Translations under genes and position numbers: made by a program
Part shown: positions 13,029-37,139 of the stretch, piece by piece
Layout of the letters: each line of letters opens with the position of its first letter
Position numbering within the stretch: position 1 is the first letter of the stretch
From: Candidatus Portnoybacteria bacterium RIFCSPHIGHO2_02_FULL_39_12
GTDB lineage: Bacteria > Patescibacteriota > Minisyncoccia > Portnoybacterales > UBA2143
Assembly: GCA_001819555.1 (NCBI GenBank)
Contig: MHMZ01000032.1
Span: 20,834 to 60,010 of the forward strand
Length of the DNA: 39,177 bases
Direction of reading: 5' to 3'
The notes under the pieces: generated by a model
Told to the model about the DNA's origin: nothing
The model's input: only the letters and a program-made list of their open reading frames with translations
The model's database searches: none

Positions 13029-13036
13029 AATGGAAA

Positions 13037-13129
13037 CGCTCGGCCGCTTCCAGCGGCGGCCTCGCTCAATACTCAGCGCGGTGCCCCGCCTTTTAGGCGG
13101 GGACCAAGCCGCCGCGCTTCCGCATGGTC
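13037..13129. other. Non-coding GC-rich structured island of unknown function
   Basis: About 90 nt, far more GC-rich than its surroundings. Hairpin CCCCGCC-TTTTA-GGCGGGG (13084-13102) is nested between GCGGCGGC (13053-13060) and GCCGCCGC (13108-13115). CGCTTCC occurs on both flanks. No plausible ORF. Confidence 0.6.
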
Positions 13130-13161
13130 AAAAAAGTGTAAACAATGCTAGAATTTCTTAT

Positions 13162-13243
13162 AAATAAAGCGATTTCATAAATTAAGATAAGAGATTTTTA
13201 GAAAATATGAAACTATTAGTAATTATTCCCGCTTATAACGAAG
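13162..13243 (+). repeat. 82-bp perfect direct repeat, copy B
   Basis: Identical to 12002-12083. Confidence 0.95.
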
Positions 13244-14181: not shown

Positions 14182-14194
14182 AAAAAATATTTTA

Positions 14195-25219: not shown

Positions 25220-26692
25220 ATGCCAAGCGTTAAAAATCCTAAAATTATTTTAGTTGATCCGTATATCAGCAGCATTCCTGGTTTGGGTTTAGCTTATTTG
25301 GCCGCTTATTTAAGAAAATATCTTCAAATTAAAGATATTAAGATATTAAAAAGGAATCTTTTTCCTTTATTAGGCAAAGCGATTATTGGGGAAGAACCTG
25401 ATCTAGTGGGTTATTTTTCTCTAACTGTTGGTTTGGATTATACTCATCAGCTAATAGAAGAAGTAGCCGAAAAGCGGCCATCAACTATTCAGATTATGGG
25501 AGGACCGCATATCACTGCTTTACCGGAGAGTTTATCGCCTCAAGCTCAAGTCGGTATAATTGGCGAAGGAGAAGAAACATTGGTTCAATTGGTTAGATTA
25601 TTCCAATCTTACGGAAGCTTACCGACTAATGAATTATCTAAGATATTGGGGATAGCTTTTTATGAACAAGGTCATTTAATAAAAACAGATAATCGGCCGC
25701 TAATTATGGATTTAGATAGTCTGCCTAAGCCAGCTCGGGATTTATTAGACATTAAAAGCTATTATCCTGTTCGGTTAAGGGCTTTTCCAACAAAAGTTTA
25801 TCGTTCTTCTTGTTTAATGACTACTCGAGGATGTCCTTACCGGTGTGTTTTTTGCCAAGAAGGCAAGTATGGTCCTCGATTCCGTTACCATTCCGCCAGT
25901 AGAGTAGTTGAAGAAATAGAAGAGTTAATTGAGCAATATAATTGTAATTATGTAGAGATACAAGACGACCAGTTTTTATGCCACAAACAGAGACTAAGAG
26001 ATATTGTCAGCGGTGTCAAAAGTAAGGGTTTAGAAAAAAAAGCGGCTTTCTACTGCTACCTTAGAGCCACTCAAGTTGATGAAGAAGTTATCTGTTTATT
26101 AAAAGAGATGAATACCAGATTAGTTTTTATTGGTTTTGAATCCGGTTCGGATAAAATATTAAAATACCTGAAAGATAAAACCTGTTCCGTGGAAATTAAC
26201 CAGCGAGCTTATGACTTATGTCGTCAGCATGATATTTATGTTTACGGCGCTTTTATTTTTGGCTCTCCCTTAGAGACAATGGATGATATGGAAAAAACTT
26301 ATCAATTTATGAAAAAAAATCCGATGGCCTTATGCGAGGTTTCCAGATTAACTCCTTTGCCCGGGACTGGTATTTGGGATTATGCTTTTAAAAAGGGTCT
26401 AGTCAATCCGATGATGGATTTCGAAAATCTAAGAGTCAGAGTGAGAGATGACAACTTAAACCAACTTTGGTTAGCTGAAAATGTAACCAAAGAAAAATTT
26501 TTAGAATTTTTTAATAAAAAAGTCAAACCGCTTGCTTGGCGATATTCTCAGGCCGCTAATGATTTTAAGATAATAGACTTATTTAATATTGAATTTATCA
26601 AAATTTTTATTAAAAACCCTAAATTTTATTTCTCGGTTTTTAAAAGAAGCCTAGAAAATATTTTTTATCGTATATTCAAGGGCAAAGATTAA
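25220..26692 (+). CDS. Cobalamin-binding-domain (class B) radical SAM enzyme, paralog 2
   Basis: RGCPYRCVFC. B12-domain motif IMGGPHITALPES. 490 aa. Confidence 0.85.
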   Translation: MPSVKNPKIILVDPYISSIPGLGLAYLAAYLRKYLQIKDIKILKRNLFPLLGKAIIGEEPDLVGYFSLTVGLDYTHQLIEEVAEKRPSTIQIMGGPHITALPESLSPQAQVGIIGEGEETLVQLVRLFQSYGSLPTNELSKILGIAFYEQGHLIKTDNRPLIMDLDSLPKPARDLLDIKSYYPVRLRAFPTKVYRSSCLMTTRGCPYRCVFCQEGKYGPRFRYHSASRVVEEIEELIEQYNCNYVEIQDDQFLCHKQRLRDIVSGVKSKGLEKKAAFYCYLRATQVDEEVICLLKEMNTRLVFIGFESGSDKILKYLKDKTCSVEINQRAYDLCRQHDIYVYGAFIFGSPLETMDDMEKTYQFMKKNPMALCEVSRLTPLPGTGIWDYAFKKGLVNPMMDFENLRVRVRDDNLNQLWLAENVTKEKFLEFFNKKVKPLAWRYSQAANDFKIIDLFNIEFIKIFIKNPKFYFSVFKRSLENIFYRIFKGKD

Positions 26693-27333
26693 TGTATATT
26701 TATCAACCGGATAGAGTTTTACTTAAACGACAAATTGAGAAATACAGTCATTATATTAAAGGAAAAGTATTAGACGTGGGAGCGGGTAAAACCAGCCGTT
26801 ATAGGGATTTATTTGATTGTCGGGAGTATATCAAGATGGATATTGAAAAAAGCGATAATATAGACATTGTTGGCCAGGCGGAGAATATTCCTTTTGAAAA
26901 TAATACCTTCGATTCTATTATTTGTACCCAAGTTTTAGGCGATGTTGAGGATATATTTGAGGCCATTAAGGAATGTTATAGGGTTCTAAAACCTAATGGA
27001 ATGATTTTACTAACCGAATCAATGGTAGAAGAAATACATAACAAACAAAGAGATTCTTGGAGGTTTACCAGATTAGGAATGAAGCGCCTTTTTAAAAAGG
27101 CAGGATTTAAGATTATTATTCTTAGCCGGAGGGGGGGATTTTTTTCAATAAAAGCGCAAATTAATACCCGCTATCTAATTGATAAATTTAATCTTTATTC
27201 TCATAAATATGGAAGAGTATTAAGCCCGTTTTTTAGAGCTTATAGCGAGTTTATGTTTTTTTTAGATAAAATAGACCAAAGCCAAGCGAATAAGAAGTTT
27301 GCTTTAGGTTGGTGTATAATAGCTAAAAAATGA
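26692..27333 (+). CDS. Class I SAM-dependent methyltransferase (Methyltransf_11-like)
   Basis: VLDVGAGKT and LKPNGMILLTESM. TAATG 1-nt overlap with the upstream stop. Confidence 0.85.
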   Translation: MYIYQPDRVLLKRQIEKYSHYIKGKVLDVGAGKTSRYRDLFDCREYIKMDIEKSDNIDIVGQAENIPFENNTFDSIICTQVLGDVEDIFEAIKECYRVLKPNGMILLTESMVEEIHNKQRDSWRFTRLGMKRLFKKAGFKIIILSRRGGFFSIKAQINTRYLIDKFNLYSHKYGRVLSPFFRAYSEFMFFLDKIDQSQANKKFALGWCIIAKK

Positions 27334-28115
27334 ATAAAACAATTATCACAACCAGCTGGGATGACGGGAGCAGGGAAGATTTAAGGGTGAGCCGGCTTTT
27401 AAATACTTTTAATCTTAAGGGCACTTTTTATGTCCTTCAAGCGCGCGAATTCCGGTCTTTAACCGATGAAGAGATTAAGGAATTAAGTAAAACCCAGGAA
27501 ATTGGGGCCCACACCCTAAATCATTACGACTTGACTAAGTTGAGCTTAGTTCGGGCCAAAAAGCAGATAATCGGTTCAAAAAAAAATTTAGAGGATATTT
27601 TACATAAACCAATAAAAATGTTTTGCTATCCGAAGGGGAAATATAATTCAGAAATTAAAGAAATAGTTCAGGAGGCAAATTTTTTAGGGGCCAGAACGAC
27701 AAAGGAATTTTCTTTTAGAGAGCCAAAAGATTTTTTTGAATTTGGCGCGGCTCTTCATGTTTATCCTTTTCCCTTGAGAAAAAGAGATAGAGAGCATTAT
27801 CATTTATCCCGATTTTTATTTCAGCCGTTAGGAAGAAAATTTTTTAAAATTTTAAAATTAGGCCTGCCATTTTCTTCTTTTTTAAACTGGCCGAATTTAG
27901 CCAAAGCTCTTTTTGATTATGTTTATAAAAACGGCGGAATTTACCATTTGTGGGGCCATTCTTGGGAAGTAGAGCGTTACGGCATGTGGCTGGAATTAGA
28001 AGATTTATTTAGATATATAAGCCGGAGAGAGAATGTTTTGTATTTGACTAATGGCCAGGCCTTAGAATTCTTTAGGGTCCGACCCTCGCTAGGGTCGGAC
28101 CCTCACAATCTATGA
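27330..28115 (+). CDS. Polysaccharide deacetylase (NodB-homology, CE4-like; ArnD-like role possible)
   Basis: Motif 1 TTSWDDGS (TFDDG-like). Motif 2 GAHTLNH (HxxxH). ATGA overlaps at both ends. The C-terminal 10 residues are encoded by the palindrome at 28074-28103. Confidence 0.75.
   Translation: MNKTIITTSWDDGSREDLRVSRLLNTFNLKGTFYVLQAREFRSLTDEEIKELSKTQEIGAHTLNHYDLTKLSLVRAKKQIIGSKKNLEDILHKPIKMFCYPKGKYNSEIKEIVQEANFLGARTTKEFSFREPKDFFEFGAALHVYPFPLRKRDREHYHLSRFLFQPLGRKFFKILKLGLPFSSFLNWPNLAKALFDYVYKNGGIYHLWGHSWEVERYGMWLELEDLFRYISRRENVLYLTNGQALEFFRVRPSLGSDPHNL
28074..28103. repeat. GGGTCCGACCC palindrome family copy
   Basis: AGGGTCCGACCCT-CGCT-AGGGTCGGACCCT. It lies inside the 3' end of the deacetylase CDS and 8 nt before the ATG at 28112. 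Confidence 0.9.
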
Positions 28116-29431
28116 GGATTTTGTTTTTACAAGACGATTTTCCGCCGGAAAGTTTAGGCGGCGCCGGGACGGTTGCTTTTAATTTGGCCCAAGAATTTAG
28201 AAAGAAAGGCCATCAGGTTTATGTTATTTGCGCGGTTAAAGATAAAGATAAGGCCGGCCAGCGGATTGAAGAAGGGTTAGCGGTTTTTCGGCTTTACGCT
28301 AATTATCACGAGCGCTGGCGCGCTTATTTAGGGCTTTACAATCCCCAAATAATCAATCAGATAAAAAAATTATTCAGCCAAATCCGGCCGGATATCGCTC
28401 ATTTTCACAACGTTCATTATTATTTATCCTATGCTTCCTTAAAAATAGCTAAAAAATACAGCCGGGCGGTTTTTCTGACGGCTCATGACGTAATGTCTTT
28501 TCATTACGGTAAATTGATAGAATTCATCAATCCAAATAATTTATCAATTCCTAAAACTTTTAATTATAGAATCACTCCTTTAAAACAAATCAAAAGATTT
28601 AAAAAAAGATACAATCCTTTGAGAAATATTATTATCAGGCATTATTTAAAAAAGGCCAATAAGATTTTCCCGGTTAGTTCCGCTTTAAAAGAGGCCCTAA
28701 AACAGAATGGGATAGAGAACACAGAAGTAATTTATAATGGCATAAACGCGGACGAATGGCAGATTGATGATAAATTGATAGATGATTTCAAAAAGAAATA
28801 CCGGCTTTTTAATAAAAAAGTGATTTTTATGATTGGCCGGTTAAGCGATTTAAAAGGCGGGGAGAAAATTATCAGGGCGATGGAAATAGTCAATCAAAAA
28901 ATACCAGAGGCGGTTTTAATGGCCGCGGGCGATAAACAAGGTTATGCTCAAAAGATGTTAAGCTTGGCTGAAAATAAAAATATCCAATTGCTTCTGACCG
29001 GATATTTACGAAGAGATGAATTAAAAGCGGCAACCCGGAGCAGTGATTTAGCGGTTGTTCCTTCTATTTGTTTTGATTCTTTTCCGACATCTAATTTGGA
29101 AGCCATGGCTTGTCAGAAGCCGGTTATCGGCACTTGTTTCGGGGGAACGCCGGAAATTGTTCTGGATAATATAACCGGCTATATTGTTAATCCTTTTAAT
29201 ATAGAAAAAATGGCGGAAAAAATCATAGCGCTTTTAAGCGATTCCCAAAAAGCCGAACAATTCGGACAAGCCGGCTATGAACGGGTCAAGAGATATTTTT
29301 CTCTTCAAGAACAAGCGGAAAAGATTCTTAAATATTATGAACAATTCCTAAGAGGTTCTTTAGGGTCAGACCCTCGCGAGGGTCTGACCCTAAAGAACCC
29401 TCAAGAAAAATATGCGCGTCCTCTTAATTAA
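28112..29431 (+). CDS. GT4-family (Glycos_transf_1) glycosyltransferase
   Basis: FPTSNLEAMACQKPVIGTCFGGTPEIVLDNITGYIV. N-terminus MRILFLQDDFPPESLGGAG. The C-terminal ~25 residues are encoded by the palindrome at 29354-29399 and its flank. Confidence 0.9.
   Translation: MRILFLQDDFPPESLGGAGTVAFNLAQEFRKKGHQVYVICAVKDKDKAGQRIEEGLAVFRLYANYHERWRAYLGLYNPQIINQIKKLFSQIRPDIAHFHNVHYYLSYASLKIAKKYSRAVFLTAHDVMSFHYGKLIEFINPNNLSIPKTFNYRITPLKQIKRFKKRYNPLRNIIIRHYLKKANKIFPVSSALKEALKQNGIENTEVIYNGINADEWQIDDKLIDDFKKKYRLFNKKVIFMIGRLSDLKGGEKIIRAMEIVNQKIPEAVLMAAGDKQGYAQKMLSLAENKNIQLLLTGYLRRDELKAATRSSDLAVVPSICFDSFPTSNLEAMACQKPVIGTCFGGTPEIVLDNITGYIVNPFNIEKMAEKIIALLSDSQKAEQFGQAGYERVKRYFSLQEQAEKILKYYEQFLRGSLGSDPREGLTLKNPQEKYARPLN
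29354..29399. repeat. GGGTCCGACCC palindrome family copy: 46-bp perfect palindrome with a compensated arm substitution
   Basis: GGTTCTTTAGGGTCAGACCCTCG|CGAGGGTCTGACCCTAAAGAACC. Arms read GGGTCAGACCC / GGGTCTGACCC instead of GGGTCCGACCC / GGGTCGGACCC. Confidence 0.95.
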
Positions 29432-30854
29432 TCCGCCCAGATTTAACGAAGTTTTGGCCGATAACCCGTCTTTTATTGACGAAGAACGGGGGTTTAATCC
29501 GCCCTTGGGCTTGCTTTACATAGCCGGTTATTTAAAAAAATATAGCGGGCATCGGGTTTTTTGTTTAGACGCTCAAGTAGAAGGTCTAAATTACAATAAA
29601 GGGTTTAAAAAAAGAATAGAAGCGATAAGCCCGGATGTCGTTGGCATGACCGTGATGACTTTTACTTTGATTGACGCTTTAAAAACGATTGAATTAATCA
29701 GAGAAGCGGAAGAAGGGCTTAATAAAAAAATTATTATTGTTTTAGGGGGGCCTCATGTTCATTTATTCCCCAAAGAGACAATTCAATTAAAGGGTGTTGA
29801 TTTTATAACCAAAGGAGAAGGCGAGCGGCCTTTTTTTAATTTACTGGAAGCCCTTGAAGGACGCGGTCAATTAGCCGATGTTAAGGGCTTGGCTTATCGG
29901 GAAAAAGACGTAATTATTGATAATCCGGTCGGCGATTTTATTGAAAATTTGGACGAATTGCCTTTTCCGGACAGAAATTTATTGCCAATTGAAAAATATA
30001 ATTCAATTTTGGGCCACGGCCGAATTGTGACAACGATGTTTACTTCGCGGGGCTGTCCTTTTAAATGCGCCTTTTGCGACCGGCCTCATTTGGGCAAAAG
30101 ATTTAGAGCCAGAAGCGCCAAAAATGTGGTTGATGAAATGGAAGAATGTCTTAAATTAGGCATTGAAGAGATTTTAATTTATGACGATACTTTTACCGTT
30201 AACCGGCAAAGAACAATTGATATTTGCGACGAAATTCTTAAAAGGGGATTAAAGTTTATTTGGGATATCCGGGCCCGGGTTGACACGGTTGATGAAGAGG
30301 TCTTAAAAAAACTAAAGCGGGCCGGCTGTCAAAGGATTCATTTTGGAGTTGAGGCCGGCACAGAGAAAATTTTAAAGGTCTTAAATAAAGGGATTCATTT
30401 AAATCAGATAGAAAACGCTTTTAGGTCAGCTAAAAAAGCTGGCCTTGAGACATTGGCTTATTTTATGATTGGGGCGCCGACCGAGACCAAAGAAGATATT
30501 TTAGAGACGATTAAATTTGCCAAAAAAATAAAACCGGCTTATGCTCATATCACTATTTTAACCCCTTATCCGGCCACCGCTATCTATTATCAGGCCTTAG
30601 CCCAAGGGGTAATTCAGAGTGATTATTGGCGCGCCTTTGCCAGCCAGCCGGAAAAAGGCGTGGTGACCCGATATTGGGAAAAAGAATTAACCAGAGAGGA
30701 ATTATTTTATTTTTTGAATAAATTTTATAAGGAGTTTTACGGCCGGCCGGCTTATCTTATCCGGCAGATATTAAAAGTTCGTTCTTTTGACGATTTGAAA
30801 AGAAAAGTAAGAGCTGGTTTAAAGGTATTAAACATCAGGGTCCGACCCTCATGA
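29412..30854 (+). CDS. Cobalamin-binding-domain (class B) radical SAM enzyme, paralog 3
   Basis: SRGCPFKCAFC and VLGGPHVHLFPKE. 480 aa. The stop codon lies in the centre of the palindrome at 30837-30866. Confidence 0.85.
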   Translation: MRVLLINPPRFNEVLADNPSFIDEERGFNPPLGLLYIAGYLKKYSGHRVFCLDAQVEGLNYNKGFKKRIEAISPDVVGMTVMTFTLIDALKTIELIREAEEGLNKKIIIVLGGPHVHLFPKETIQLKGVDFITKGEGERPFFNLLEALEGRGQLADVKGLAYREKDVIIDNPVGDFIENLDELPFPDRNLLPIEKYNSILGHGRIVTTMFTSRGCPFKCAFCDRPHLGKRFRARSAKNVVDEMEECLKLGIEEILIYDDTFTVNRQRTIDICDEILKRGLKFIWDIRARVDTVDEEVLKKLKRAGCQRIHFGVEAGTEKILKVLNKGIHLNQIENAFRSAKKAGLETLAYFMIGAPTETKEDILETIKFAKKIKPAYAHITILTPYPATAIYYQALAQGVIQSDYWRAFASQPEKGVVTRYWEKELTREELFYFLNKFYKEFYGRPAYLIRQILKVRSFDDLKRKVRAGLKVLNIRVRPS

Positions 30855-30866
30855 GGGTCGGACCCT
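30837..30866. repeat. GGGTCCGACCC palindrome family copy, 30-bp perfect palindrome
   Basis: AGGGTCCGACCCTCA|TGAGGGTCGGACCCT. The central TGA (30852-30854) is the stop of the 29412 gene. It ends 15 nt before the ATG at 30882. Confidence 0.95.
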
Positions 30867-30881
30867 TATATTTCCCTCAAA

Positions 30882-32294
30882 ATGCGAGTGTTATTTATTA
30901 ATAAATTTTTAGACAAACATACCATTTACCGGGTTCCCTTGGGCATTTTGTATTTGTCGGCCTCTCTTAAACAGGCCGGCCATCAAGTTTTTATCGGCGA
31001 GCCGCAAAGAGAGAATATTATTGATAAAATAAAAAAGATTAGGCCGGATATTATCGCTTATTCTTTAAGGACCGGATTTCATCGTTATTATATTGACTTA
31101 AATAAAAAACTAAAAAAGCAATTTAATTTTTTTTCAATCTTTGGCGGTCCCCACGCGACATTTTTCCCGGAGATGATTAAAGAAGAAGGAATTGATTGCG
31201 TCGCTCAAGGCGAAAGCGAGAAAGCTTTGGTTGATTTGGCAAATCGTTTAGCCAATGGCGGCGATTATCTTCAAACCAAGAATTTTTGGTTTAAAACCAA
31301 AGAAGGATTTTTAAAAAATTCTTTAAGGGAGTTGGAGCAGGACTTAGATAAAATACCTTTTCCCGATCGGGACCTGCTTAATTATTTTAAAGAAATCAGA
31401 CTTTCCCCGATTCATAATTTTCTTACTTCAAGGGGTTGTCTTTATAACTGCAGTTATTGTTTTAATCACCGGCTAAGGGCAATGCACAGCGGGCAAAAAT
31501 ACCTTAGGAGAAGAAGCGTCGATAATGTCATAGAAGAGATTAACCGGGTGGCTAAAAATTATAATTTAGAGAGAGTTCTTTTTGAAGATGATACTTTTAA
31601 TATGGACAAACAGTGGCTCAAGGAGTTTAGCTTAAAATATCCCAAAATTCCCTTTAAGTGCAACTTGAGAGCTAATTTAGCCGATGAAGAGACGATTTGG
31701 TTGTTAAAAGAAGCTAATTGTTTGAGCGTGACCTTTGGCATCGAGGCCGGCAACGACATGATTCGTAATCAAGTTTTGCATAGAAATATGACTAAGGAAC
31801 AAATTATTAATTGCGCGAATTTGTTAAAAAAATATAAGATAAAATTTATTACTGAAAATATATTGGCCAACCCTACTTCCAGTTTGTCGGACGATATAGA
31901 AACCTTAGATTTAAATTTGGTTTGCCGGCCGGACTACGCCAATGTTTCTTTACTTCAGCCGTATCCGCGAACGAGGGTATTTGATATTGCTTTGGAGAAT
32001 AATCAGTTTAATAAAGAAGACATTGACGATATCAAATCTTTTTTTAGGTTTTCGCCGCTTAAAATTTCCAATAAAACGGAAAGAATCAATCTTCAGAGAA
32101 TTTTTGCCATTGTCGTGGCTTTTCCATTTTTAAGAAGATATTTGGATTTTTTAATTAAGCGGCGAAAATTAACATTAATTTATTCTTTGGGTTATAATGT
32201 CTGGAGGCCTTATTGTTTATTTTTTAAGATAATGCCCCATAAATTGTCTTTAAAAAAATTATATTGGGCAACCAAACGTTATCTGTTTGGTTAA
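30882..32294 (+). CDS. Cobalamin-binding-domain (class B) radical SAM enzyme, paralog 4 (most divergent)
   Basis: SRGCLYNCSYC and IFGGPHATFFPEM. 470 aa. Confidence 0.8.
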   Translation: MRVLFINKFLDKHTIYRVPLGILYLSASLKQAGHQVFIGEPQRENIIDKIKKIRPDIIAYSLRTGFHRYYIDLNKKLKKQFNFFSIFGGPHATFFPEMIKEEGIDCVAQGESEKALVDLANRLANGGDYLQTKNFWFKTKEGFLKNSLRELEQDLDKIPFPDRDLLNYFKEIRLSPIHNFLTSRGCLYNCSYCFNHRLRAMHSGQKYLRRRSVDNVIEEINRVAKNYNLERVLFEDDTFNMDKQWLKEFSLKYPKIPFKCNLRANLADEETIWLLKEANCLSVTFGIEAGNDMIRNQVLHRNMTKEQIINCANLLKKYKIKFITENILANPTSSLSDDIETLDLNLVCRPDYANVSLLQPYPRTRVFDIALENNQFNKEDIDDIKSFFRFSPLKISNKTERINLQRIFAIVVAFPFLRRYLDFLIKRRKLTLIYSLGYNVWRPYCLFFKIMPHKLSLKKLYWATKRYLFG

Positions 32295-32330
32295 AAATTT
32301 TTTGCCAAAGGTCTCTAGCGGTTAATTTTA

Positions 32331-32377
32331 CCCCGGCCGGCGGGATGGATAGATATTAGTCCGCGGCGCCGGGCCGG
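32331..32377. repeat. GC-rich imperfect hairpin in a 91-bp intergenic gap
   Basis: CCCCGGCCGGCGGG ... CCGCGGCGCCGGGCCGG with a 16-nt AT-rich loop. About 10 bp can pair with one bulge. It is strongly GC-rich against the AT-rich spacer. Confidence 0.6.
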
Positions 32378-32385
32378 CTTAAGAA

Positions 32386-33816
32386 ATGAAAGTTTTATTG
32401 ATTAACCCGCCATATGATATAGAAAATTATTATGGGAATTTAAGCGAGCTGGCTTTTATTTTTCCGCCGGTTGGTTTAACTTATTTAGCCGGTTATCTTC
32501 GGCAATACGAACATCAGATGGCTATTTACGATTTTCAGGTAGAGGAAAGAGATTTTAATTATTTTATTCAGGATTTTCAACCGGATTTAGTCGGCATCAC
32601 TTGTCAAACAGCTTTATTTTTTAATACTCTTAAGCTAGCCGAAAAGATTAAAAAAGCTTTCCCCCAAATACCTATAATAGTCGGCGGCGCTCATCCCACT
32701 TATCGGCCTGATGATTTTTTTGAAAACCCGGTTATTGACGCGGTGGTCAGAGGCGAAGGCGAAGAAACAATGCGGGAATTGTTATCTTATTATCATCAGA
32801 AGAACGGTTCTTTAACGGATATTTGCGGCATCAGCTTTAAAAAGGATAGTCAAATAATTCATAATCCAAACAGAGCCTTGATAAGAAATCTTGACATTCT
32901 TCCTTTGCCGGCCATTGATTTACTGCCCTTAGAGAAATATCGGGTCAGTCCAGATAATTACTTAGGCGGACGGGCCGGCTTAATCACTACTTCGCGCGGC
33001 TGTCCCTTTAGTTGTATTTTTTGCGCCAATAAAGAGGCATTTAACCGGACTTATCGGCCCCGCCGGCTGGAAAATGTTTTTGAAGAGATTGAATATTATC
33101 TTAAACATTATCAGATTTCAGAGCTTTTTGTTATGGATGATTGTTTTGGTTTGGACAGAAAAAGAGCTTTCCGGTTTTGTCAGGGAATGATTGATCGGGG
33201 CTATCATCAGAAACTATTATGGTGGTGTCAGATCAGAGTTGATTTAGTTGACCAAGAGCTTTTAAATCAAATGAGAAAAGCCGGCTGTAAAATAGTTTCT
33301 TTTGGCATTGAATCTGGCGTTCAGAGAATTTTAGACATAATAACTAAAAGGATTACCTTAAAACAAATCAGAGAAGCGGTTAAAATGACAAGAAAAGCGG
33401 ATTTAGAAACCAGAGGGAGCTTTATTTTGGGTTTGCCGACCGAAACCTTAAAGGATTCTTTAAAAACCATTCTCTTCTCTTTGATACTTCCTTTAAGCCA
33501 AGTAAAGTTTGGATTAGCCACTCCTTATCCCGGAACAAAATTATGGGAGATCGCTTTAGCCGAGGGCCAAGTTAAAGACCGGGGAGAGGATTGGAATCGG
33601 TTTACCCAGATGGCCGCCTATACAAAATACCGGGCTTCTTATATTCCCCAAGGCAGAAGCGCCGCTGAATTAATGTTTTTGCAAAAATTCGCCAATCTTA
33701 TTTTTTATTTTAAACCAAGCGTTATCATTTCATTTATTAAGAGAATCAAAAGTTTTAATGATTTTAAATATTTTTTAAAATCGCTGTTTAAGTTTTTATT
33801 AAGTTCAATTCGGTAA
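32386..33816 (+). CDS. Cobalamin-binding-domain (class B) radical SAM enzyme, paralog 5
   Basis: SRGCPFSCIFC and IVGGAHPTYRPDD. 476 aa. Confidence 0.85.
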   Translation: MKVLLINPPYDIENYYGNLSELAFIFPPVGLTYLAGYLRQYEHQMAIYDFQVEERDFNYFIQDFQPDLVGITCQTALFFNTLKLAEKIKKAFPQIPIIVGGAHPTYRPDDFFENPVIDAVVRGEGEETMRELLSYYHQKNGSLTDICGISFKKDSQIIHNPNRALIRNLDILPLPAIDLLPLEKYRVSPDNYLGGRAGLITTSRGCPFSCIFCANKEAFNRTYRPRRLENVFEEIEYYLKHYQISELFVMDDCFGLDRKRAFRFCQGMIDRGYHQKLLWWCQIRVDLVDQELLNQMRKAGCKIVSFGIESGVQRILDIITKRITLKQIREAVKMTRKADLETRGSFILGLPTETLKDSLKTILFSLILPLSQVKFGLATPYPGTKLWEIALAEGQVKDRGEDWNRFTQMAAYTKYRASYIPQGRSAAELMFLQKFANLIFYFKPSVIISFIKRIKSFNDFKYFLKSLFKFLLSSIR

Positions 33817-33831
33817 TCAAAAATAATAACG

Positions 33832-33862
33832 TAAATTAACGTAATTCAATTACGTTAATTTA
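33832..33862. promoter_or_regulatory. 31-bp perfect AT-rich palindrome with ACGT cores; candidate operator or weak hairpin
   Basis: TAAATTAACGTAATT-C-AATTACGTTAATTTA, with a third direct TAACGTAA half-site just upstream (33828-33835). It ends 7 nt before the ATG at 33870. Confidence 0.4.
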
Positions 33863-33869
33863 GATTAGT

Positions 33870-35288
33870 ATGAAAGTCCTGTTGTTAAATCCTCCTTTTA
33901 CTGATTACGGCGGCTTAGAGGGCCACGGCGGCAAGGCCCTGCCTTTGAATTTGGCTTATTTAGCCGCTTATTTAAGAGTCAAAAGGCCGGAGATAGAAAT
34001 TAAAGTTTTAGATTGCGAGGGCTTGGGCTTGTCGTATTTTCAAATTGAAGAGGAAATAAAAACCATTCGGCCGGCTATTGTCGGTTTGACGGCTCCGACG
34101 CCCGCTTTTGCCCAGGTCTTAGAAGTTTGCCGAATAATTAAAAATATCTCCAGAGATATTGTGGTTGTAGTCGGCGGGCCCCATCCGACCGCTCTGCCCA
34201 AAGAGACCGTGGCTGAAAAAGATATTGACGCGGCTGTGCTCTACGAAGGAGAATACACTTTTTTTAACCTGATTGAAGCGATTGAAAATAACAAAGGACT
34301 AAGCGAAGTGAAAGGGATTGCCTATAAGGACCGAGAGGGGAATGTTTGCCTGAATCCTCCCGGGGAAATTATTAAAGATTTAGACGCTTTGCCTTTTCCG
34401 GCCCGCGACCTTTTTCCCTTAGACATTTATTTTCCGCCGCCCACTAAAAGAATGAGCGATAAAAAAGCCGGCAATATGATTACTTCGCGGGGCTGTCCTT
34501 ATCAATGCACTTATTGTATGGCCAGCTACATGTGGCAGAGAAAAGTGAGGTTTAGAAGCATTAAAAATGTGGTTGATGAAATTGAAGAATGCATTAATAA
34601 ATACGGGCTGGGCGAATTTAATTTTCACGACGAGCTTTTTACGGTCAATAAAAAAAGAACCATAGAATTTTGCCAGGAAGTCAAAAAACGGGATTTGGAT
34701 ATTGTCTGGGTTTGCATGTGCCGGGTAGATTATCTTGATGAAGAAACTTTAAGGGAAATGAAATCAGCCGGCTGTCGGAAAATAATGTTTGGTTTTGAAT
34801 CTGGCTCGCAGATGATTTTAGATATTATGAAAAAAAGAGTGGCTTTGGATAAAGCCGAAGAAGCGGTTAAATTGGTTAAAAAAGCGGGTATTAAAACAGC
34901 CGGTAATTTTATGCTGGGCAATATCGGCGAAACCGAAGAAACGATAAGAGAGACCATAAATTTAGCCAAGAAATTAAATTGCGATACCATGGCTTTTTTT
35001 GTGGCCAGCCCTTATCCGGGCACGGAATTTTATGAGACGGCCAAGGCCAGAGGATATTTCAGAAAAGACATTGAATGGAAGGATTTTACTTTGGTCTCTA
35101 ACAACTTGCCGCCTCTTAATTTGCCGGGCCTGCCGGCCGAGCGAATTTTATACTGGCAGAAAAGAGCTTTTCGCGAATATTATTTAAGGCCCCGATATGT
35201 CTTAATGAAAATTGCCGGCGTTAATAGCTGGGTTGATTTAAAAAATTTATACAACGGCGCTAAATTATTTTTGAGAATAGAGCGATAA
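33870..35288 (+). CDS. Cobalamin-binding-domain (class B) radical SAM enzyme, paralog 6
   Basis: SRGCPYQCTYC and VVGGPHPTALPKE. 472 aa. Confidence 0.85.
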   Translation: MKVLLLNPPFTDYGGLEGHGGKALPLNLAYLAAYLRVKRPEIEIKVLDCEGLGLSYFQIEEEIKTIRPAIVGLTAPTPAFAQVLEVCRIIKNISRDIVVVVGGPHPTALPKETVAEKDIDAAVLYEGEYTFFNLIEAIENNKGLSEVKGIAYKDREGNVCLNPPGEIIKDLDALPFPARDLFPLDIYFPPPTKRMSDKKAGNMITSRGCPYQCTYCMASYMWQRKVRFRSIKNVVDEIEECINKYGLGEFNFHDELFTVNKKRTIEFCQEVKKRDLDIVWVCMCRVDYLDEETLREMKSAGCRKIMFGFESGSQMILDIMKKRVALDKAEEAVKLVKKAGIKTAGNFMLGNIGETEETIRETINLAKKLNCDTMAFFVASPYPGTEFYETAKARGYFRKDIEWKDFTLVSNNLPPLNLPGLPAERILYWQKRAFREYYLRPRYVLMKIAGVNSWVDLKNLYNGAKLFLRIER

Positions 35289-35297: not shown

Positions 35298-36263
35298 ATG
35301 CTTTCTCATAAAAAAATAAAAATCTTTTTCCAAATTTTGGGCCCGCTGGTTTTTCTTTATATTCTATCCAAAATAGATTATCAATTTCTTTTTGAAGAAA
35401 TTAAATTATTAAAATGGCATTTTTTAATCTTAGCTGTTGGCTTGATGATTTTTAAGATTACTTTTAAAGCCCTACGTTGGCGGATTATCTTATTGTCTTT
35501 AAATGTATCTATTTCAAAAATCAGCGCTTTAAACTTATACTGGTCAGGCGCTTTAACCGGCCTGGCCACCCCGGGTCATTTTGGCGAGTTGATTAAAGTT
35601 TATTTTCTTAAAAATAGGGGCCATAATGTTTTCCATTCTTTTTTCAGCTTAATTTTAGACCGGATAATTGATATTTTAACTTTATTAATTTTTGGTTTTT
35701 TGATTTTCTTATTTTTCTTAAAAAATATCGGCGTCTATGTGATTTCTCTCGGCCTTATCTTTTTATTTATTATCATTTTTATTTTTTTAATTTTAGATCA
35801 GAGAACCTTTCTCCATAAAGTTTTCAACAAGCTGTTTCAAAGATTTTTACCGGTTGATTTCAGCGATTATTCCCGCTTTTCTTTCTCTAAATTCTTTAAA
35901 GGCCTCAAAGACCTAAAAAAGAAAGAAGTATTTTATTTTTTTGCGTATTTAATCATCGGCTGGTTTTTTTATTTTTTATCCCGATATCTGGTTGCTTTGT
36001 CTTTGGGTTTGGATTTGTCTTTTATGACTATTACCGCTATTTCTATTTTAGTGGCCATCATTACCGCTCTGCCGATTTCTATTGCCGGTTTGGGCACTAG
36101 AGAAGCCGCGGTCATCTATTTTTTCAGCTTATTTGGACTTAATAAAGAAATAGCCGTTTTATTTTCTTTATTGATTTTTACCGTTGATATTTTAGTTATT
36201 TCTTTAGGTTTGATTTTTTATCTTAGAGAATTAAGCTTGATTAATAAAGTTAAACAAATATAA
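35298..36263 (+). CDS. LPG-synthase-TM / 'flippase-like' (UPF0104, TIGR00374-type) membrane protein
   Basis: 321 aa and polytopic. RWRIILLSLNVSIS and the family motif LPISIAGLGTREAA. Confidence 0.75.
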   Translation: MLSHKKIKIFFQILGPLVFLYILSKIDYQFLFEEIKLLKWHFLILAVGLMIFKITFKALRWRIILLSLNVSISKISALNLYWSGALTGLATPGHFGELIKVYFLKNRGHNVFHSFFSLILDRIIDILTLLIFGFLIFLFFLKNIGVYVISLGLIFLFIIIFIFLILDQRTFLHKVFNKLFQRFLPVDFSDYSRFSFSKFFKGLKDLKKKEVFYFFAYLIIGWFFYFLSRYLVALSLGLDLSFMTITAISILVAIITALPISIAGLGTREAAVIYFFSLFGLNKEIAVLFSLLIFTVDILVISLGLIFYLRELSLINKVKQI

Positions 36264-36266: not shown

Positions 36267-37139
36267 ATGATAGGGATGTTATTAGCTTTTTTTGCCGGGC
36301 TTTCTTATTCAGCTAGGGATGCCTTTAGCAAAAGAGCTTTAAAAAACTTAGATGAATACGTGACTGCTTGGGCTCTTAGGTTTTTTGCCTTGCCATTAAT
36401 TATAGTGTTGTTATTTAGCTTTGAAATGCCGGAAGTTAAGCCGGCTTTCTGGTGGTGGTTAGTCATTGTCACGATAATAGATATTATAATTATGGTAATT
36501 TTTATGAAAGCCGTTAAGATTTCTGACCTTTCATTAGTTATTCCGATACTTGCTTTTACGCCTTTATTTATTTTAATTATTTCTCCTTTTTGGATTCACG
36601 AGCTGCCAAATATCTATGGTATTATTGGTATAGTTTTAGTGGTTATTGGCGCCTATATTTTAAATATTAAGGAAAAAAATAAAGGTTGGTTATTTCCCTT
36701 AAAAGCATTGTTAATTAATAAAGGTTTGCGCCTAATGTTTTTCGCTTCTTTTTTAATGGCTATAACCACCATTATTGACAGAGTAGCGATTGAGAATTCA
36801 TCGCCAATTTTTTATCTGATTTTTATTCATCTATTGTATGTCTTGATGTTTTTGCCGATTGTTTTGTATCGGCTGAAAGGCAAAATAAAATCAACTTTTA
36901 TTTTTAAGAACATCAAATTAATGTTGCCAGTCGGCCTATCTAGCGGATTTTTTTTGCTTTTTCATATGTTAGCTATTCCCTTGACATATGTGTCCTATGT
37001 TTCAGCCATTGAAAAGCTAAGTATTATTATCAGCGTTATATTCGGCTATTTTATTTTTAAGGAGAGAAATATAAAGGGACGTTTAACTGGCGCAGTTATT
37101 ATGGTTTTAGGGATTTTGTTTATAATATTAGGTAGATGA
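36267..37139 (+). CDS. EamA/DMT-superfamily transporter
   Basis: 290 aa with about 10 TM helices in two similar halves and small hydrophilic loops. In glycan loci such proteins can act like ArnE/F-type lipid-linked sugar flippases (inference). Confidence 0.65.
   Translation: MIGMLLAFFAGLSYSARDAFSKRALKNLDEYVTAWALRFFALPLIIVLLFSFEMPEVKPAFWWWLVIVTIIDIIIMVIFMKAVKISDLSLVIPILAFTPLFILIISPFWIHELPNIYGIIGIVLVVIGAYILNIKEKNKGWLFPLKALLINKGLRLMFFASFLMAITTIIDRVAIENSSPIFYLIFIHLLYVLMFLPIVLYRLKGKIKSTFIFKNIKLMLPVGLSSGFFLLFHMLAIPLTYVSYVSAIEKLSIIISVIFGYFIFKERNIKGRLTGAVIMVLGILFIILGR

What the first reader, a model, noticed from the sequence alone, without database searches (positions are those of the whole stretch)
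29412..35288. Six paralogous cobalamin-domain (class B) radical SAM enzymes in one glycan locus, four in an uninterrupted tandem array
Six proteins share one architecture: 1847..3262, 25220..26692, 29412..30854, 30882..32294, 32386..33816 and 33870..35288. They are 470-490 aa. Each has an N-terminal Rossmann-like domain with GG-x-H-x-T/P (for example VLGGPHVHLFPKE), a conserved LD-x-LPFP linker, (S/T/Q)RGC-x3-C-x2-C, and a TIM-barrel remainder.

They are clearly diverged from each other, so they are old paralogs and presumably have distinct substrates or steps. Characterised class B radical SAMs perform chemically difficult C-methylations and related reactions on unactivated carbons or phosphorus. 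Examples are GenK/GenD1 on aminoglycoside sugars, Fom3, TsrM, and HpnP/HpnR on hopanoid lipids.

Six of them sit next to six ordinary SAM methyltransferase domains, a carbamoyltransferase, an amidotransferase and a deacetylase. This predicts an exceptionally decorated product. Candidates are multiply C-methylated or branched sugars, or a modified polyprenyl or lipid anchor. I cannot map it to any described pathway.

If the host is a reduced-genome, CPR-like organism, the implied cobalamin dependence would itself be notable.
Basis: partly seen in the sequence, partly recalled or inferred. Interest (0 to 1): 0.72.

Follow-up and report, generated by a model that had tools for sequence, protein, structure and literature searches.

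The report
Radical SAM paralog array, glycan locus
A groundwater Parcubacteria (candidate phyla radiation, CPR) genome carries six, and with one just upstream seven, old paralogs of a B12-domain radical SAM enzyme inside a large cell-surface sugar locus; they are uncharacterised members of a very large family, and similar arrays recur in many uncultivated bacteria and archaea.

Summary
Six ORFs at the stated coordinates each have a B12-binding domain (PF02310), a Radical_SAM domain (PF04055), one CxxxCxxC motif and the quoted motifs. They share 25-38% identity. A seventh copy lies about 6 kb upstream of the window.

The glycan context also holds and is more specific than stated. The window has three polyprenyl-phosphate-sugar synthase-type GT2s, flippase-like proteins, and three GT-C transferases, one identified here by fold.

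Three paralogs (r3 at 29412, r5 at 32386, r6 at 33870) have 51-66% orthologs in other phyla. These sit next to the same GT2, flippase-like and GT-C genes, and in one genome they form a tandem triad.

The chemistry is unresolved. No named family cutoff is reached. The nearest HMM families are HpnJ and BchE, which are not methylases. The nearest solved structure is AprD4, which does not use cobalamin. However, the N-terminal domains match only cobalamin-binding N-domains.

The array is not exceptional. Of 80 related loci, 9 have four or more copies, and the largest has eight.

My best reading is radical tailoring of a lipid-carrier-linked sugar before it is flipped and transferred. This is uncharacterised and of moderate interest.

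The parts
1847..3262 (+). r1, B12-domain radical SAM paralog (471 aa)
   Evidence: PF02310 69 bits and PF04055 85 bits. CPFNCAFC at residue 210 and GGVH at 103. Best NCBIfam hit is BchE at 228 bits against a cutoff of 481.
25220..26692 (+). r2, B12-domain radical SAM paralog (490 aa), flanked by two methyltransferases
   Evidence: PF02310 54 bits and PF04055 75 bits. Best NCBIfam hit is HpnJ at 143 bits against a cutoff of 578. 28-32% identical to the other paralogs.
29412..30854 (+). r3, first gene of the tandem array (480 aa); its start overlaps the upstream GT4 gene by 20 nt
   Evidence: Orthologs of 52-58% identity occur in Methanosarcinales, Nealsonbacteria, Saccharibacteria, a PVC-group bacterium, Omnitrophota and L093.
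30882..32294 (+). r4, most diverged paralog (470 aa), with a C-terminal insertion that includes a hydrophobic segment
   Evidence: PF02310 57 bits and PF04055 61 bits. 25-29% identical to the others. Hydrophobic stretch at residues 407-425. About 40% identical relatives in Chloroflexota loci.
32386..33816 (+). r5 (476 aa)
   Evidence: PF02310 96 bits and PF04055 74 bits. A 51% ortholog lies immediately after the r3 and r6 orthologs in L093.
33870..35288 (+). r6 (472 aa), last gene of the array, 9 nt upstream of the flippase-like gene
   Evidence: AlphaFold2 model with pLDDT 93 and pTM 0.90. Foldseek top hits are AprD4, QCMT, TsrM, OxsB, CysS and TokK. Orthologs of 50-87% identity occur in Patescibacteria, Omnitrophota, Woesearchaeota and Acidobacteria.
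35298..36263 (+). LPG_synthase_TM flippase-like membrane protein; a conserved neighbour of r6 orthologs
   Evidence: PF03706 150 bits. TIGR00374 flippase-like domain at 84 bits, with HpnL as second hit. Adjacent to r6 orthologs.
36267..37139 (+). EamA-family membrane protein, a candidate small-molecule or lipid-linked-sugar transporter
   Evidence: PF00892 94 bits. About 8 hydrophobic segments.
37657..38532 (+). GT2c, polyprenyl-phosphate-sugar synthase-type GT2 with two C-terminal transmembrane segments
   Evidence: PF00535 111 bits. Best NCBIfam hits are AglJ, Dol-P-hexose transferase, PpgS and ArnC. Orthologs lie next to r3 or r6 orthologs in L013 (4-nt overlap), L019, L012 and L010.
12046..14181 (+). 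GT2a (12046-12999) and GT2b (13207-14181), two more polyprenyl-phosphate-sugar synthase-type GT2s
   Evidence: PF00535. AglJ, Dol-P-hexose transferase, PpgS and ArnC are the best hits. C-terminal transmembrane segments.
4993..6783 (+). unk596, a GT-C-fold membrane glycosyltransferase with no Pfam family
   Evidence: No Pfam or NCBIfam hit. AlphaFold2 model with pLDDT 88.7. The top 26 Foldseek PDB hits are all GT-C enzymes: STT3/AglB/PglB, AftA, DPY19, ArnT, AftD and ALG3. One homolog is fused to GtrA. A homolog scoring 437 bits sits in the eight-copy locus L016.
6780..10561 (+). PMT_2 (6780-8114) and YfhO (8129-10561) GT-C family membrane glycosyltransferases
   Evidence: PF13231 58 bits and PF09586 61 bits. 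8-9 hydrophobic segments each.
10567..12006 (+). LPG_synthase_TM domain fused to a SAM methyltransferase domain
   Evidence: PF03706 61 bits plus Methyltransf_23 42 bits.
27330..28115 (+). Polysaccharide deacetylase (carbohydrate esterase 4 type)
   Evidence: PF01522 64 bits. The same family follows the rSAM cassette in L093 and L009.
28112..29431 (+). GT4b glycosyltransferase immediately upstream of the array
   Evidence: PF00534 122 bits and PF13439 86 bits.
3297..4962 (+). Two SAM methyltransferases (3297-4067 and 4060-4962) downstream of r1
   Evidence: Methyltransf_11/25/31 hits.
24467..25216 (+). SAM methyltransferase upstream of r2
   Evidence: Methyltransf_11 86 bits.
26692..27333 (+). 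SAM methyltransferase downstream of r2
   Evidence: Methyltransf_11 52 bits.
14105..17678 (+). GT4a (14105-15394), NodU-like carbamoyltransferase (15391-17118) and a methyltransferase (17115-17678)
   Evidence: NodU is the best NCBIfam hit at 165 bits, far below its cutoff.
5..1741 (+). AsnB-type glutamine amidotransferase; its N-terminus is cut by the window edge (623 aa in full)
   Evidence: PF00733 335 bits. Closest to the XrtA/PEP-CTERM exopolysaccharide-associated amidotransferase at 549 bits. The full gene is seen in L092.
19671..22112 (.). GT9 heptosyltransferase-like gene (19671-20861, +) and Wzx-type Polysacc_synt flippase (20832-22112, -)
   Evidence: PF01075 70 bits and PF01943 46 bits.

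Best explanation
The six proteins, seven counting the upstream copy, are anciently diverged paralogs of a B12-domain radical SAM enzyme. Each has an N-terminal Rossmann cobalamin-type domain and a [4Fe-4S]/SAM barrel. They form an uncharacterised branch near HpnJ and BchE.

They sit in one long, co-directional surface-glycan locus of a Parcubacteria (CPR) bacterium. The locus is built around lipid-carrier glycosylation. It has three GT2 enzymes of the type that load a sugar onto polyprenyl phosphate, flippase-like and EamA membrane proteins, and at least three GT-C transferases that use such lipid-linked sugars outside the membrane.

My proposed mechanism is inferred, not shown:
1. A GT2 loads a hexose or N-acetylhexosamine onto polyprenyl phosphate at the cytoplasmic face.
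2. The deacetylase, methyltransferases, carbamoyltransferase and amidotransferase decorate its heteroatoms.
3. The radical SAM paralogs each abstract a hydrogen from an unactivated sugar carbon. The outcome would be either methylation via methylcobalamin or rearrangement, as proposed for HpnJ on hopanoid-linked glucosamine.
4. The flippase-like protein encoded directly after r6 moves the product across the membrane, and a GT-C enzyme attaches it to a surface acceptor.

Different paralogs would act at different positions or steps. The orthologs of r3, r6 and r5 form a conserved cassette.
For: **Shown**
- Domains and motifs are present in all six.
- The r6 model has a Rossmann N-domain and a barrel, and matches OxsB, TokK, TsrM, QCMT and CysS at TM 0.66-0.75.
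- An N-domain-only profile hits only cobalamin-binding rSAM N-domains significantly: OxsB 2e-15, TokK 1e-14, CysS 1e-9, TsrM 3e-6, QCMT 1e-5 and 4Q37 2e-5. AprD4 is not found at E<=1.
- All three GT2s best match AglJ, Dol-P-hexose transferase, PpgS and ArnC, and have C-terminal transmembrane segments.
- PMT_2 and YfhO are present, and unk596 has a GT-C fold.
- The locus is tightly packed, with overlapping or very short intergenic gaps.

**Comparative**
- r6 orthologs in seven independent genomes, both bacterial and archaeal, all have a GT2 nearby. An LPG_synthase_TM gene lies directly next to the ortholog in four of the seven and within 10 kb in two more.
- In L013 a GT2c ortholog overlaps the start of an r3 ortholog by 4 nt.
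- L093 has r3, r6 and r5 orthologs in tandem, followed by a deacetylase, an epimerase, a GT2 and a carbamoyltransferase.
- Among 46 related loci of at least 15 kb, 28 hold a homolog of the window's GT2s and 33 hold some glycosyltransferase.

**Precedent**
- HpnI (GT2), HpnK (deacetylase) and HpnJ (B12 rSAM) convert lipid-linked GlcNAc to a cyclitol ether. Calditol synthase (Cds) is proposed to contract a lipid-linked glucose ring (PMC13459092).
Against: - No enzyme of this branch has been characterised, and the substrate assignment rests on gene neighbourhood alone.
- The radical SAM enzymes could act on nucleotide sugars or on the finished glycan rather than on the lipid-linked sugar.
- The nearest solved structure and the best PDB sequence match for the barrel half is AprD4, which does not bind cobalamin (PMC12931638). 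A PF02310 hit does not prove cobalamin use.
- The GT2 enrichment has no matched background control.
- phmmer found LPG_synthase_TM homologs in only 5 of the 80 more distant loci, so that link may hold only for the r6 group.
- No cobalamin riboswitch occurs on the 82 kb examined, and cobalamin uptake genes could not be surveyed.
Confidence: 0.45

Rival explanations
1. They are conventional class B radical SAM C-methyltransferases acting on soluble sugar intermediates (nucleotide sugars or oligosaccharides), as GenK and GenD1 do on gentamicin sugars. The result would be a multiply C-methylated glycan.
For: - The N-domains match cobalamin-binding domains of radical methylases (TokK, CysS, QCMT).
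- Methylation is the commonest known function of this superfamily (PMC13459092, PMC12931638).
- At the alignment column of the lower-axial residue (TsrM R69, OxsB N186), r1, r2 and r3 carry F, L and M. A hydrophobic residue there is typical of radical methylases (PMC12931638).
Against: - All named methylase HMM families score far below their cutoffs: PhpK 87-153 bits against 600, HpnR 56-140 against 650, KedN5 36-108 against 700, and the RiPP C-methyltransferase family 47-113 against 282.
- The top families are HpnJ and BchE, which are not methylases.
- At the same column r4, r5 and r6 carry R, Q and P, so the signal is mixed and depends on the alignment.
- The conserved pairing with a flippase-like gene and a polyprenyl-phosphate GT2 points to a lipid-linked substrate.
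Confidence: 0.25
2. Some or all are cobalamin-independent AprD4-like enzymes. They would dehydrate a sugar 1,2-diol, and with a partner reductase would make deoxy sugars. The N-terminal Rossmann domain would be structural only.
For: - AprD4 (6fd2) is the top Foldseek hit over the full length (TM 0.74-0.77, 24% identity).
- AprD4 is also the top PDB sequence hit for the barrel half (165 bits).
- AprD4 acts on an aminosugar.
- Oxidoreductase genes sit next to orthologs elsewhere: nitroreductase-family genes in L012 and L019, and GFO_IDH_MocA genes in L009 and L093.
Against: - The AprD4 family HMM gives 53-136 bits against a cutoff of 500.
- The AprD4 N-domain aligns at only 8.7 bits to the six-paralog profile and is absent from the N-domain-only search, which finds six cobalamin-type domains.
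- No AprD3-like reductase is encoded in the window.
Confidence: 0.12
3. They modify a lipid rather than a sugar. The target would be the polyprenyl carrier or scavenged membrane lipids, modified by methylation, cyclisation or cross-linking as in HpnP/HpnR, GrsA/B, or the ladderane-associated B12 rSAM.
For: - Hits to the lipid-biosynthesis B12 rSAM family TIGR04072 reach 89-152 bits.
- Many lipid-modifying rSAMs carry B12 domains (PMC13459092).
- LPG_synthase_TM proteins handle lipids.
- r4 has a hydrophobic C-terminal segment.
Against: - TIGR04072 scores are well below its cutoff of 360.
- No lipid or isoprenoid biosynthesis genes occur in the 39-kb window or the 20 kb of flanks seen.
- Every conserved neighbour is a sugar-handling enzyme.
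Confidence: 0.1
4. They mature a ribosomal peptide (RiPP), as ApyD or PoyC do.
For: ApyD-family hits of 71-196 bits.
Against: - The ApyD cutoff is 750.
- There is no room for a precursor gene in the array gaps of 27, 91 and 53 nt.
- No protease, transporter or RiPP recognition element genes are present.
- The whole neighbourhood is glycan machinery.
Confidence: 0.03

Closest known systems
HpnJ with HpnI, HpnK and HpnL (hopanoid side-chain module)
   Same: - HpnJ is the best or second-best NCBIfam family for all six (112-250 bits, alignments covering about 400 residues).
- The module logic matches: a GT2, a deacetylase, a B12-domain rSAM and an LPG_synthase_TM-type membrane protein.
- The window's flippase-like protein has HpnL as its second-best hit.
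- HpnJ is proposed to rearrange a lipid-linked glucosamine (PMC13459092).
   Different: - Scores are less than half the HpnJ cutoff of 577.6.
- No squalene-hopene cyclase, hpnH or other hopanoid genes are present.
- The GT2s are of the polyprenyl-phosphate type, not HpnI.
- The deacetylase is PF01522 rather than the HpnK family.
- There are seven paralogs instead of one.
AprD4 (apramycin C3' deoxygenation, PDB 6fd2)
   Same: It is the closest solved structure (TM about 0.75) and the closest PDB sequence for the radical SAM half. It has the same length and two-domain layout, and its substrate is an aminosugar.
   Different: AprD4 does not bind cobalamin (PMC12931638). Its N-domain is not detectably similar to these N-domains. 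The family HMM scores far below cutoff.
Class B radical SAM sugar C-methyltransferases (GenK, GenD1, Fms7)
   Same: Same superfamily and architecture. They tailor sugars inside a biosynthetic gene cluster alongside ordinary methyltransferases (PMC12931638).
   Different: Those act on soluble aminoglycoside intermediates in actinomycete antibiotic clusters. The locus here is cell-surface glycan machinery.
BchE (anaerobic Mg-protoporphyrin monomethyl ester cyclase)
   Same: It is the best NCBIfam hit for r1 and r5 (228 and 213 bits). Public pipelines often give this name to relatives.
   Different: Scores are below the cutoff of 481. No tetrapyrrole genes are present. The name on relatives is annotation carry-over.
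Arn and Gtr type lipid-carrier glycosylation (ArnC/D/E/F/T; GtrA/B/V; archaeal AglD/AglJ)
   Same: The context genes match these roles: a polyprenyl-phosphate-sugar GT2, a PF01522 deacylase acting before flipping, small or flippase-like membrane proteins, and a GT-C transferase. One unk596 homolog is fused to GtrA.
   Different: Known systems of this kind contain no radical SAM enzyme. Here up to seven are embedded, together with six methyltransferases, two carbamoyltransferases (one of them upstream of the window) and an amidotransferase.

Membership tests
B12-binding-domain radical SAM superfamily (class I layout: N-terminal Rossmann domain plus rSAM barrel) | Radical SAM core with a CxxxCxxC cluster motif | tested here: met
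   PF04055 at 61-105 bits in all six. One CxxxCxxC in each of the seven paralogs.
B12-binding-domain radical SAM superfamily (class I layout: N-terminal Rossmann domain plus rSAM barrel) | N-terminal cobalamin-type Rossmann domain | tested here: met
   PF02310 at 54-96 bits against a cutoff of 32.1. The r6 model has a five-strand Rossmann N-domain. The N-domain profile hits OxsB, TokK, CysS, TsrM, QCMT and 4Q37.
B12-binding-domain radical SAM superfamily (class I layout: N-terminal Rossmann domain plus rSAM barrel) | No DxHxxG histidine ligand (base-off, His-off binding mode) | tested here: met
   No DxHxxG in any of the seven, and GGxH is invariant. The base-off mode is general in solved members (PMC12931638).
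B12-binding-domain radical SAM superfamily (class I layout: N-terminal Rossmann domain plus rSAM barrel) | Actually binds and uses cobalamin | not testable with these tools
   AprD4 and ArsL show that proteins grouped with this superfamily can lack cobalamin (PMC12931638). This needs purified protein.
Class B radical SAM methyltransferases | Belongs to a named methylase family (PhpK, HpnR, KedN5, RiPP C-methyltransferase, MCR glutamine methylase, TsrM) | tested here: not met
   All scores are far below the curated cutoffs.
Class B radical SAM methyltransferases | Hydrophobic residue under the cobalt, as in radical methylases | tested here: inconclusive
   The column aligned to TsrM R69 and OxsB N186 reads F, L, M, R, Q, P in r1-r6. 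The column aligned to TokK W76 reads N, V, F, G, A, P. The result depends on the alignment.
HpnJ (TIGR03471) | Score at or above the equivalog cutoff of 577.6 | tested here: not met
   112-250 bits.
HpnJ (TIGR03471) | Hopanoid gene context (shc, hpnH, hpnI, hpnK) | tested here: not met
   None occur in the window or the flanks seen. Only an HpnL-like second hit for the flippase-like protein.
BchE (TIGR02026) | Score at or above the cutoff of 481.35, with tetrapyrrole gene context | tested here: not met
   95-228 bits. No bacteriochlorophyll genes.
AprD4 family diol dehydratase (NF033070) | Score at or above the cutoff of 500 | tested here: not met
   53-136 bits, covering the barrel half only.
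AprD4 family diol dehydratase (NF033070) | Degenerate, non-cobalamin N-domain like that of AprD4 | tested here: not met
   The AprD4 N-domain aligns at only 8.7 bits to the six-paralog profile and is absent from the N-domain search at E<=1.
Lipid-carrier (polyprenyl-phosphate-sugar) glycosylation system: the context, not the rSAMs | GT2 polyprenyl-phosphate-sugar synthase, a flippase candidate and a GT-C transferase encoded together | tested here: met
   GT2a, GT2b and GT2c best match AglJ, Dol-P-hexose transferase, PpgS and ArnC. PF03706 occurs twice and EamA once. PMT_2 and YfhO are present, and unk596 has a GT-C fold.

The most novel reading that the evidence does not exclude
Conserved cassettes of several B12-domain radical SAM paralogs (orthologs of r3, r6 and r5) carry out successive C-H functionalisations on a sugar while it is attached to polyprenyl phosphate. 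The reactions could be C-methylation, ring contraction to a carbocycle, or deoxygenation. This would be a previously undescribed branch of surface-glycan tailoring, shared by horizontal transfer among CPR bacteria, DPANN and other archaea, and anaerobic bacteria. It would imply unknown sugar or cyclitol structures on the surfaces of these uncultivated cells.
Probability: 0.3. Interest if true: 0.75.

Novelty: new variant of a known kind. Interest (0 to 1): 0.5.

Why it matters
B12-domain radical SAM enzymes form one of the largest enzyme groups that remains mostly uncharacterised. For r6 alone there are 16,085 clusters at 50% identity with E<=1e-30.

This locus and its relatives give a concrete, testable starting point:
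- a small conserved cassette of r3, r6 and r5 orthologs, a polyprenyl-phosphate GT2, a deacetylase and a flippase-like protein;
- a predicted substrate class, namely lipid-carrier-linked sugars.

If the prediction holds, it would:
- extend radical SAM sugar chemistry from antibiotic pathways and hopanoid or archaeal lipid head groups to ordinary surface glycans;
- point to unusual surface sugars in CPR and DPANN cells, whose surfaces are thought to mediate their attachment to hosts;
- make cobalamin supply a factor in building those surfaces.

If the enzymes prove ordinary, the finding is simply a correct annotation of a gene-rich glycan locus.

Tried and rejected
- **Named families.** All NCBIfam equivalogs were checked (HpnJ, BchE, ApyD, PhpK, BzaD, HpnR, AprD4, ArsL and others). 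None reaches its cutoff.
- **Recent duplication.** Rejected. Identity is 25-38% at protein level and no DNA repeats occur beyond motif-coding stretches.
- **Cobalamin riboswitch or any Rfam RNA.** None found on the window plus flanks, 82 kb in all.
- **RiPP reading.** Rejected for lack of a precursor gene, the space for one, or accessory genes.
- **Literature.** Eight searches combined radical SAM or cobalamin with CPR, Patescibacteria, Parcubacteria, glycosyltransferase, undecaprenyl, HpnI/J/K or AprD4. None found a paper on such loci. Several of these returned zero papers, so I make no literature claim about cobalamin use in CPR.
- **Genome-contig scan.** It served as a census instead.
- **unk673 (17675-19696).** It could not be assigned: no Pfam, NCBIfam or PDB sequence hit, and hhalign to the unk596 family gave only 23% probability.
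- **Cultured organisms.** The ten nearest r6 cluster representatives are all from metagenomes. The only cultured organism among the related loci is Paramagnetospirillum kuznetsovii (L081), a relative of about 33% identity.
- **Phylogeny with characterised class B enzymes.** HMM score profiles were used as a proxy.

Full report
**1. What is there**

The window is positions of about 21326-60502 of contig MHNB01000015.1 (78,885 bp) of NCBI assembly GCA_001821655.1. An identical contig carries an ANAN16 groundwater sample label. I take this, from my own knowledge, to be the Rifle aquifer set.

The closest named relatives of its proteins come from Parcubacteria, Tagabacteria and "Patescibacteria group" bins. 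GC content is about 36%.

- Each passes the Pfam gathering cutoffs for PF02310 B12-binding (54-96 bits) and PF04055 Radical_SAM (61-105 bits).
- Each has a single CxxxCxxC preceded by (Q/T/S)RG, an invariant GGxH, and an L-D-x-[LI]-P-x-P linker.
- Pairwise identity is 25-38%. r3/r6 (38%), r3/r5 and r5/r6 (35%) are the closest pairs; r2 and r4 are the most diverged.
- The DNA shows no repeats beyond short motif-coding stretches, so the duplications are old.
- The gaps within the four-gene array are 27, 91 and 53 nt, with nothing encoded between the genes.

**2. The locus is larger than the window**

Walking upstream on the same contig shows the following:
- a seventh paralog (L092 4154-5584, 476 aa, 26-33% identical to the six);
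- a second carbamoyltransferase and a second PF01522 deacetylase;
- another methyltransferase, two GT4s and a GT2;
- the full 623-aa AsnB gene, which the window edge truncates.

Downstream lie a DegT-type aminotransferase, a Bac_transf initiating phosphoglycosyl transferase and a UDP-glucose dehydrogenase.

**3. What the neighbours are**

Thirty of the 31 genes in the window are co-directional, many with overlapping stops and starts.
- All three GT2s (12046, 13207, 37657) best match AglJ, dolichyl-phosphate hexose transferase, PpgS and ArnC. These enzymes load a sugar onto polyprenyl phosphate. The three GT2s also carry C-terminal transmembrane segments.
- There are two LPG_synthase_TM flippase-like proteins (10567, fused to a methyltransferase, and 35298), an EamA protein (36267) and a Wzx-type flippase (20832-22112, minus strand).
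- There are PMT_2 and YfhO GT-C glycosyltransferases.
- The unannotated 596-aa membrane protein at 4993-6783 was modelled at pLDDT 88.7. Its top 26 PDB fold matches are all GT-C enzymes: STT3/AglB/PglB, AftA, DPY19, ArnT, AftD and ALG3.
- That protein's family has only 43 detectable members. The named ones are all Patescibacteria, and one is fused to GtrA.

The locus is therefore built largely around lipid-carrier-linked monosaccharides that are flipped and transferred outside the cell. This is the logic of the Arn, Gtr and archaeal AglD/AglJ systems (own knowledge for those systems).

**4. Fold and cofactor**

An AlphaFold2 model of r6 from a 45-sequence alignment has pLDDT 93 and pTM 0.90. 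It shows an N-terminal Rossmann domain, a partial TIM barrel and a C-terminal helical region.

The Foldseek hits against the PDB are:

| Rank | Structure | What it is |
|---|---|---|
| 1 | AprD4, 6fd2 (TM 0.74-0.77, 24% identity) | sugar 1,2-diol dehydratase that does not bind cobalamin |
| then | QCMT/MgmA (9ccb), TsrM, OxsB, CysS, TokK | all solved with cobalamin, or known to use it |

A 2026 review states that AprD4 and ArsL cluster with B12 radical SAM enzymes but do not bind cobalamin (PMC12931638). A PF02310 hit is therefore not proof of cobalamin use.

Two results argue against an AprD4-like degenerate domain here.
- In the profile search, AprD4 aligns strongly only with the barrel half (165 bits) and at 8.7 bits with the N-domain. 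OxsB, TokK, QCMT, CysS and TsrM align through the N-domain.
- A profile of the seven N-domains alone finds OxsB (2e-15), TokK (1e-14), CysS (1e-9), TsrM (3e-6), QCMT (1e-5) and 4Q37 (2e-5). It does not find AprD4 at E<=1.

None of the seven has a DxHxxG histidine ligand. This matches the base-off, His-off mode of all solved members (PMC12931638).

I conclude that cobalamin binding is likely but unproven. No cobalamin riboswitch occurs on the 82 kb examined. The rest of the genome could not be surveyed.

**5. Family placement**

No NCBIfam equivalog is reached. The best scores for the six paralogs are:

| Family | Score (bits) | Cutoff (bits) |
|---|---|---|
| HpnJ | 112-250 | 578 |
| BchE | 95-228 | 481 |
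| ApyD | 71-196 | 750 |
| AprD4 | 53-136 | 500 |

The methylase families (PhpK, HpnR, KedN5 and the RiPP C-methyltransferase) also fall far below their cutoffs.

[quoted passage not shown] This mixes the hydrophobic type seen in radical methylases with the polar type seen in non-radical-methylase members (PMC12931638). It hints at different chemistries among the paralogs, but it depends on a remote alignment.

The family is very large. r6 alone finds 16,085 cluster representatives (50% identity) at E<=1e-30. Its ten nearest representatives are all from metagenomes.

**6. Comparative evidence**

r6 has orthologs of 50-87% identity in Patescibacteria, Omnitrophota, Woesearchaeota and Acidobacteria.

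I looked at seven independent genomes carrying an r6 ortholog.
- All have a GT2 nearby.
- Five of the seven have a PMT_2 GT-C gene nearby.
- An LPG_synthase_TM gene lies directly beside the r6 ortholog in four: the window (9 nt), a 464-kb JGI contig (4-nt overlap), L094 (246 nt) and L010 (about 290 nt).
- It lies within 10 kb in two more (L009, L007).

r3 has orthologs of 52-58% identity in Methanosarcinales, Nealsonbacteria, Saccharibacteria, a PVC-group bacterium and Omnitrophota.
- In L013 a GT2c ortholog overlaps the start of the r3 ortholog by 4 nt.
- In L019 and L012 a GT2c ortholog is close by, and a nitroreductase-family gene directly precedes the r3 ortholog.

Several paralogs also travel together.
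- In L009 (Omnitrophota), r3 and r6 orthologs are adjacent.
- In L093, r3 (54%), r6 (65%) and r5 (51%) orthologs form an uninterrupted triad. A PF01522 deacetylase, an epimerase, a GT2 and a carbamoyltransferase follow.

At least three of the paralogs are therefore distinct, conserved ortholog groups. They move together with a polyprenyl-phosphate GT2, a deacetylase and a flippase-like protein, across bacterial phyla and into archaea.

**7. How unusual is the array?**

I counted B12-rSAM genes (profile E<=1e-30) in the 80 loci it returned (31-38% identity to r6, from many phyla).

| rSAM genes per locus | 0 | 1 | 2 | 3 | 4 | 5 | 7 | 8 |
|---|---|---|---|---|---|---|---|---|
| Number of loci | 1 | 41 | 21 | 8 | 5 | 2 | 1 | 1 |

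- The seven-copy locus (L050) is an uninterrupted tandem run followed by a GT9.
- The eight-copy locus (L016) spans 16.7 kb and includes a 437-bit homolog of the GT-C-fold protein unk596.
- Twenty-four of the 80 loci have directly adjacent copies.
- Of the 46 loci of at least 15 kb, 28 contain a homolog of the window's GT2s and 33 contain some glycosyltransferase. There is no matched background for these two figures.

Six or seven copies is at the high end but not unique. The phenomenon is widespread and, as far as my searches show, undescribed.

**8. Mechanism proposed**

Shown: the domain identities, the fold, the motifs, the operon-like packing and the conserved synteny.

Inferred:
1. A GT2 loads a hexose or HexNAc onto polyprenyl phosphate.
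2. The deacetylase, methyltransferases, carbamoyltransferase and amidotransferase decorate its heteroatoms.
3. Each radical SAM paralog uses 5'-deoxyadenosyl radical chemistry, probably with cobalamin, on an unactivated carbon of the carrier-linked sugar.
4. The flippase-like protein translocates the product, and a GT-C enzyme attaches it to a surface acceptor.

The closest working analogy is the hopanoid module (PMC13459092). There HpnI (a GT2) adds GlcNAc to a lipid, HpnK deacetylates it, and HpnJ (a B12-domain rSAM) is proposed to contract the ring to a cyclitol ether. An HpnL protein of the same family as the window's flippase-like protein is encoded nearby, and its function is still unknown (bioRxiv 10.1101/2025.07.29.667474). 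Calditol synthase (Cds) is a second precedent for a proposed radical ring contraction of a lipid-linked hexose (PMC13459092).

I put about 0.45 on the carrier-linked-sugar model. The rivals are:
- 0.25 on conventional C-methylation of soluble sugar intermediates;
- 0.12 on cobalamin-independent AprD4-like dehydration;
- 0.10 on lipid modification;
- 0.03 on peptide maturation.

**9. Novelty and verdict**

The proteins are clear members of a known superfamily, but they lie outside every named family. The conserved multi-paralog cassette tied to lipid-carrier glycosylation is not described in the literature I could search. I rate it a new variant of a known kind, with interest 0.5.

It is a good, testable lead into a large uncharacterised enzyme group and into CPR and DPANN surface chemistry. 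However, nothing in the sequence forces a surprising conclusion, the array is not unique, and the cobalamin point remains open.

Noticed in passing
window 3269-3281, 12999-13028, 17633-17662, 28074-28103, 29362-29391, 30837-30866, 38536-38563: A GC-rich, roughly 30-nt palindrome, AGGGTCCGACCCT-(N4)-AGGGTCGGACCCT, recurs at seven gene junctions (13 half-sites against 0.01 expected by shuffling). Several copies lie inside the 3' ends of genes. One contains the stop codon of r3 and encodes its C-terminal RVRPS. The element occurs only in contigs of this organism, not in the 84 unrelated loci. It resembles a REP element or a terminator or stabiliser hairpin.
   Followed up: partly
L092 4154-5584 (contig MHNB01000015.1, upstream of the window): A seventh B12-domain radical SAM paralog lies just outside the window, together with a second carbamoyltransferase, a second deacetylase, a methyltransferase, two GT4s and a GT2. 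The glycan locus spans at least 47 kb.
   Followed up: yes
window 4993-6783: A 596-aa membrane protein with no Pfam or NCBIfam family is predicted to have a GT-C glycosyltransferase fold. Its family has only 43 detectable members; the named ones are all Patescibacteria, and one is fused to GtrA.
   Followed up: yes
window 17675-19696, 22154-23311, 23298-24461, 37201-37599: Four genes have no assignable role: a 673-aa protein with about 12 transmembrane segments, a 385-aa protein with a weak NTP_transf_2 hit, and proteins of 387 aa and 132 aa with no hits.
   Followed up: partly
P0174, P0177, P0226, P0232 and similar: Some relatives of r6 in the 50%-identity library are 1,000-2,331 aa long and contain two to five B12-rSAM modules. 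They are either genuine fusions of tandem arrays or gene-calling artefacts.
   Followed up: no
L005 11429-15647 (ENA ERZ5996431): One contig encodes an identical r6 protein but has a different downstream context: an LPG_synthase_TM-MFS fusion, then cobW and NMT1 genes. This is either a strain rearrangement or a chimeric assembly.
   Followed up: no
L092 7756-8022 compared with L091: A small GIY-YIG ORF lies between the GT2 and AsnB genes in the NCBI contig. No such ORF is called in the otherwise near-collinear ENA contig, which suggests a mobile insertion polymorphism.
   Followed up: no
L019 9331-9999 and L012 9240-9905: In two other CPR genomes a nitroreductase-family flavoprotein gene directly precedes the r3 ortholog. 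It could be an electron donor or a partner reductase. The window has no such gene.
   Followed up: partly
window 38579-39177: After the palindrome, a new gene begins with a GxGxxG dinucleotide-binding motif (KIAVIGTGAAAFG). It corresponds to a 543-aa ORF with no Pfam hit in sister contigs.
   Followed up: no
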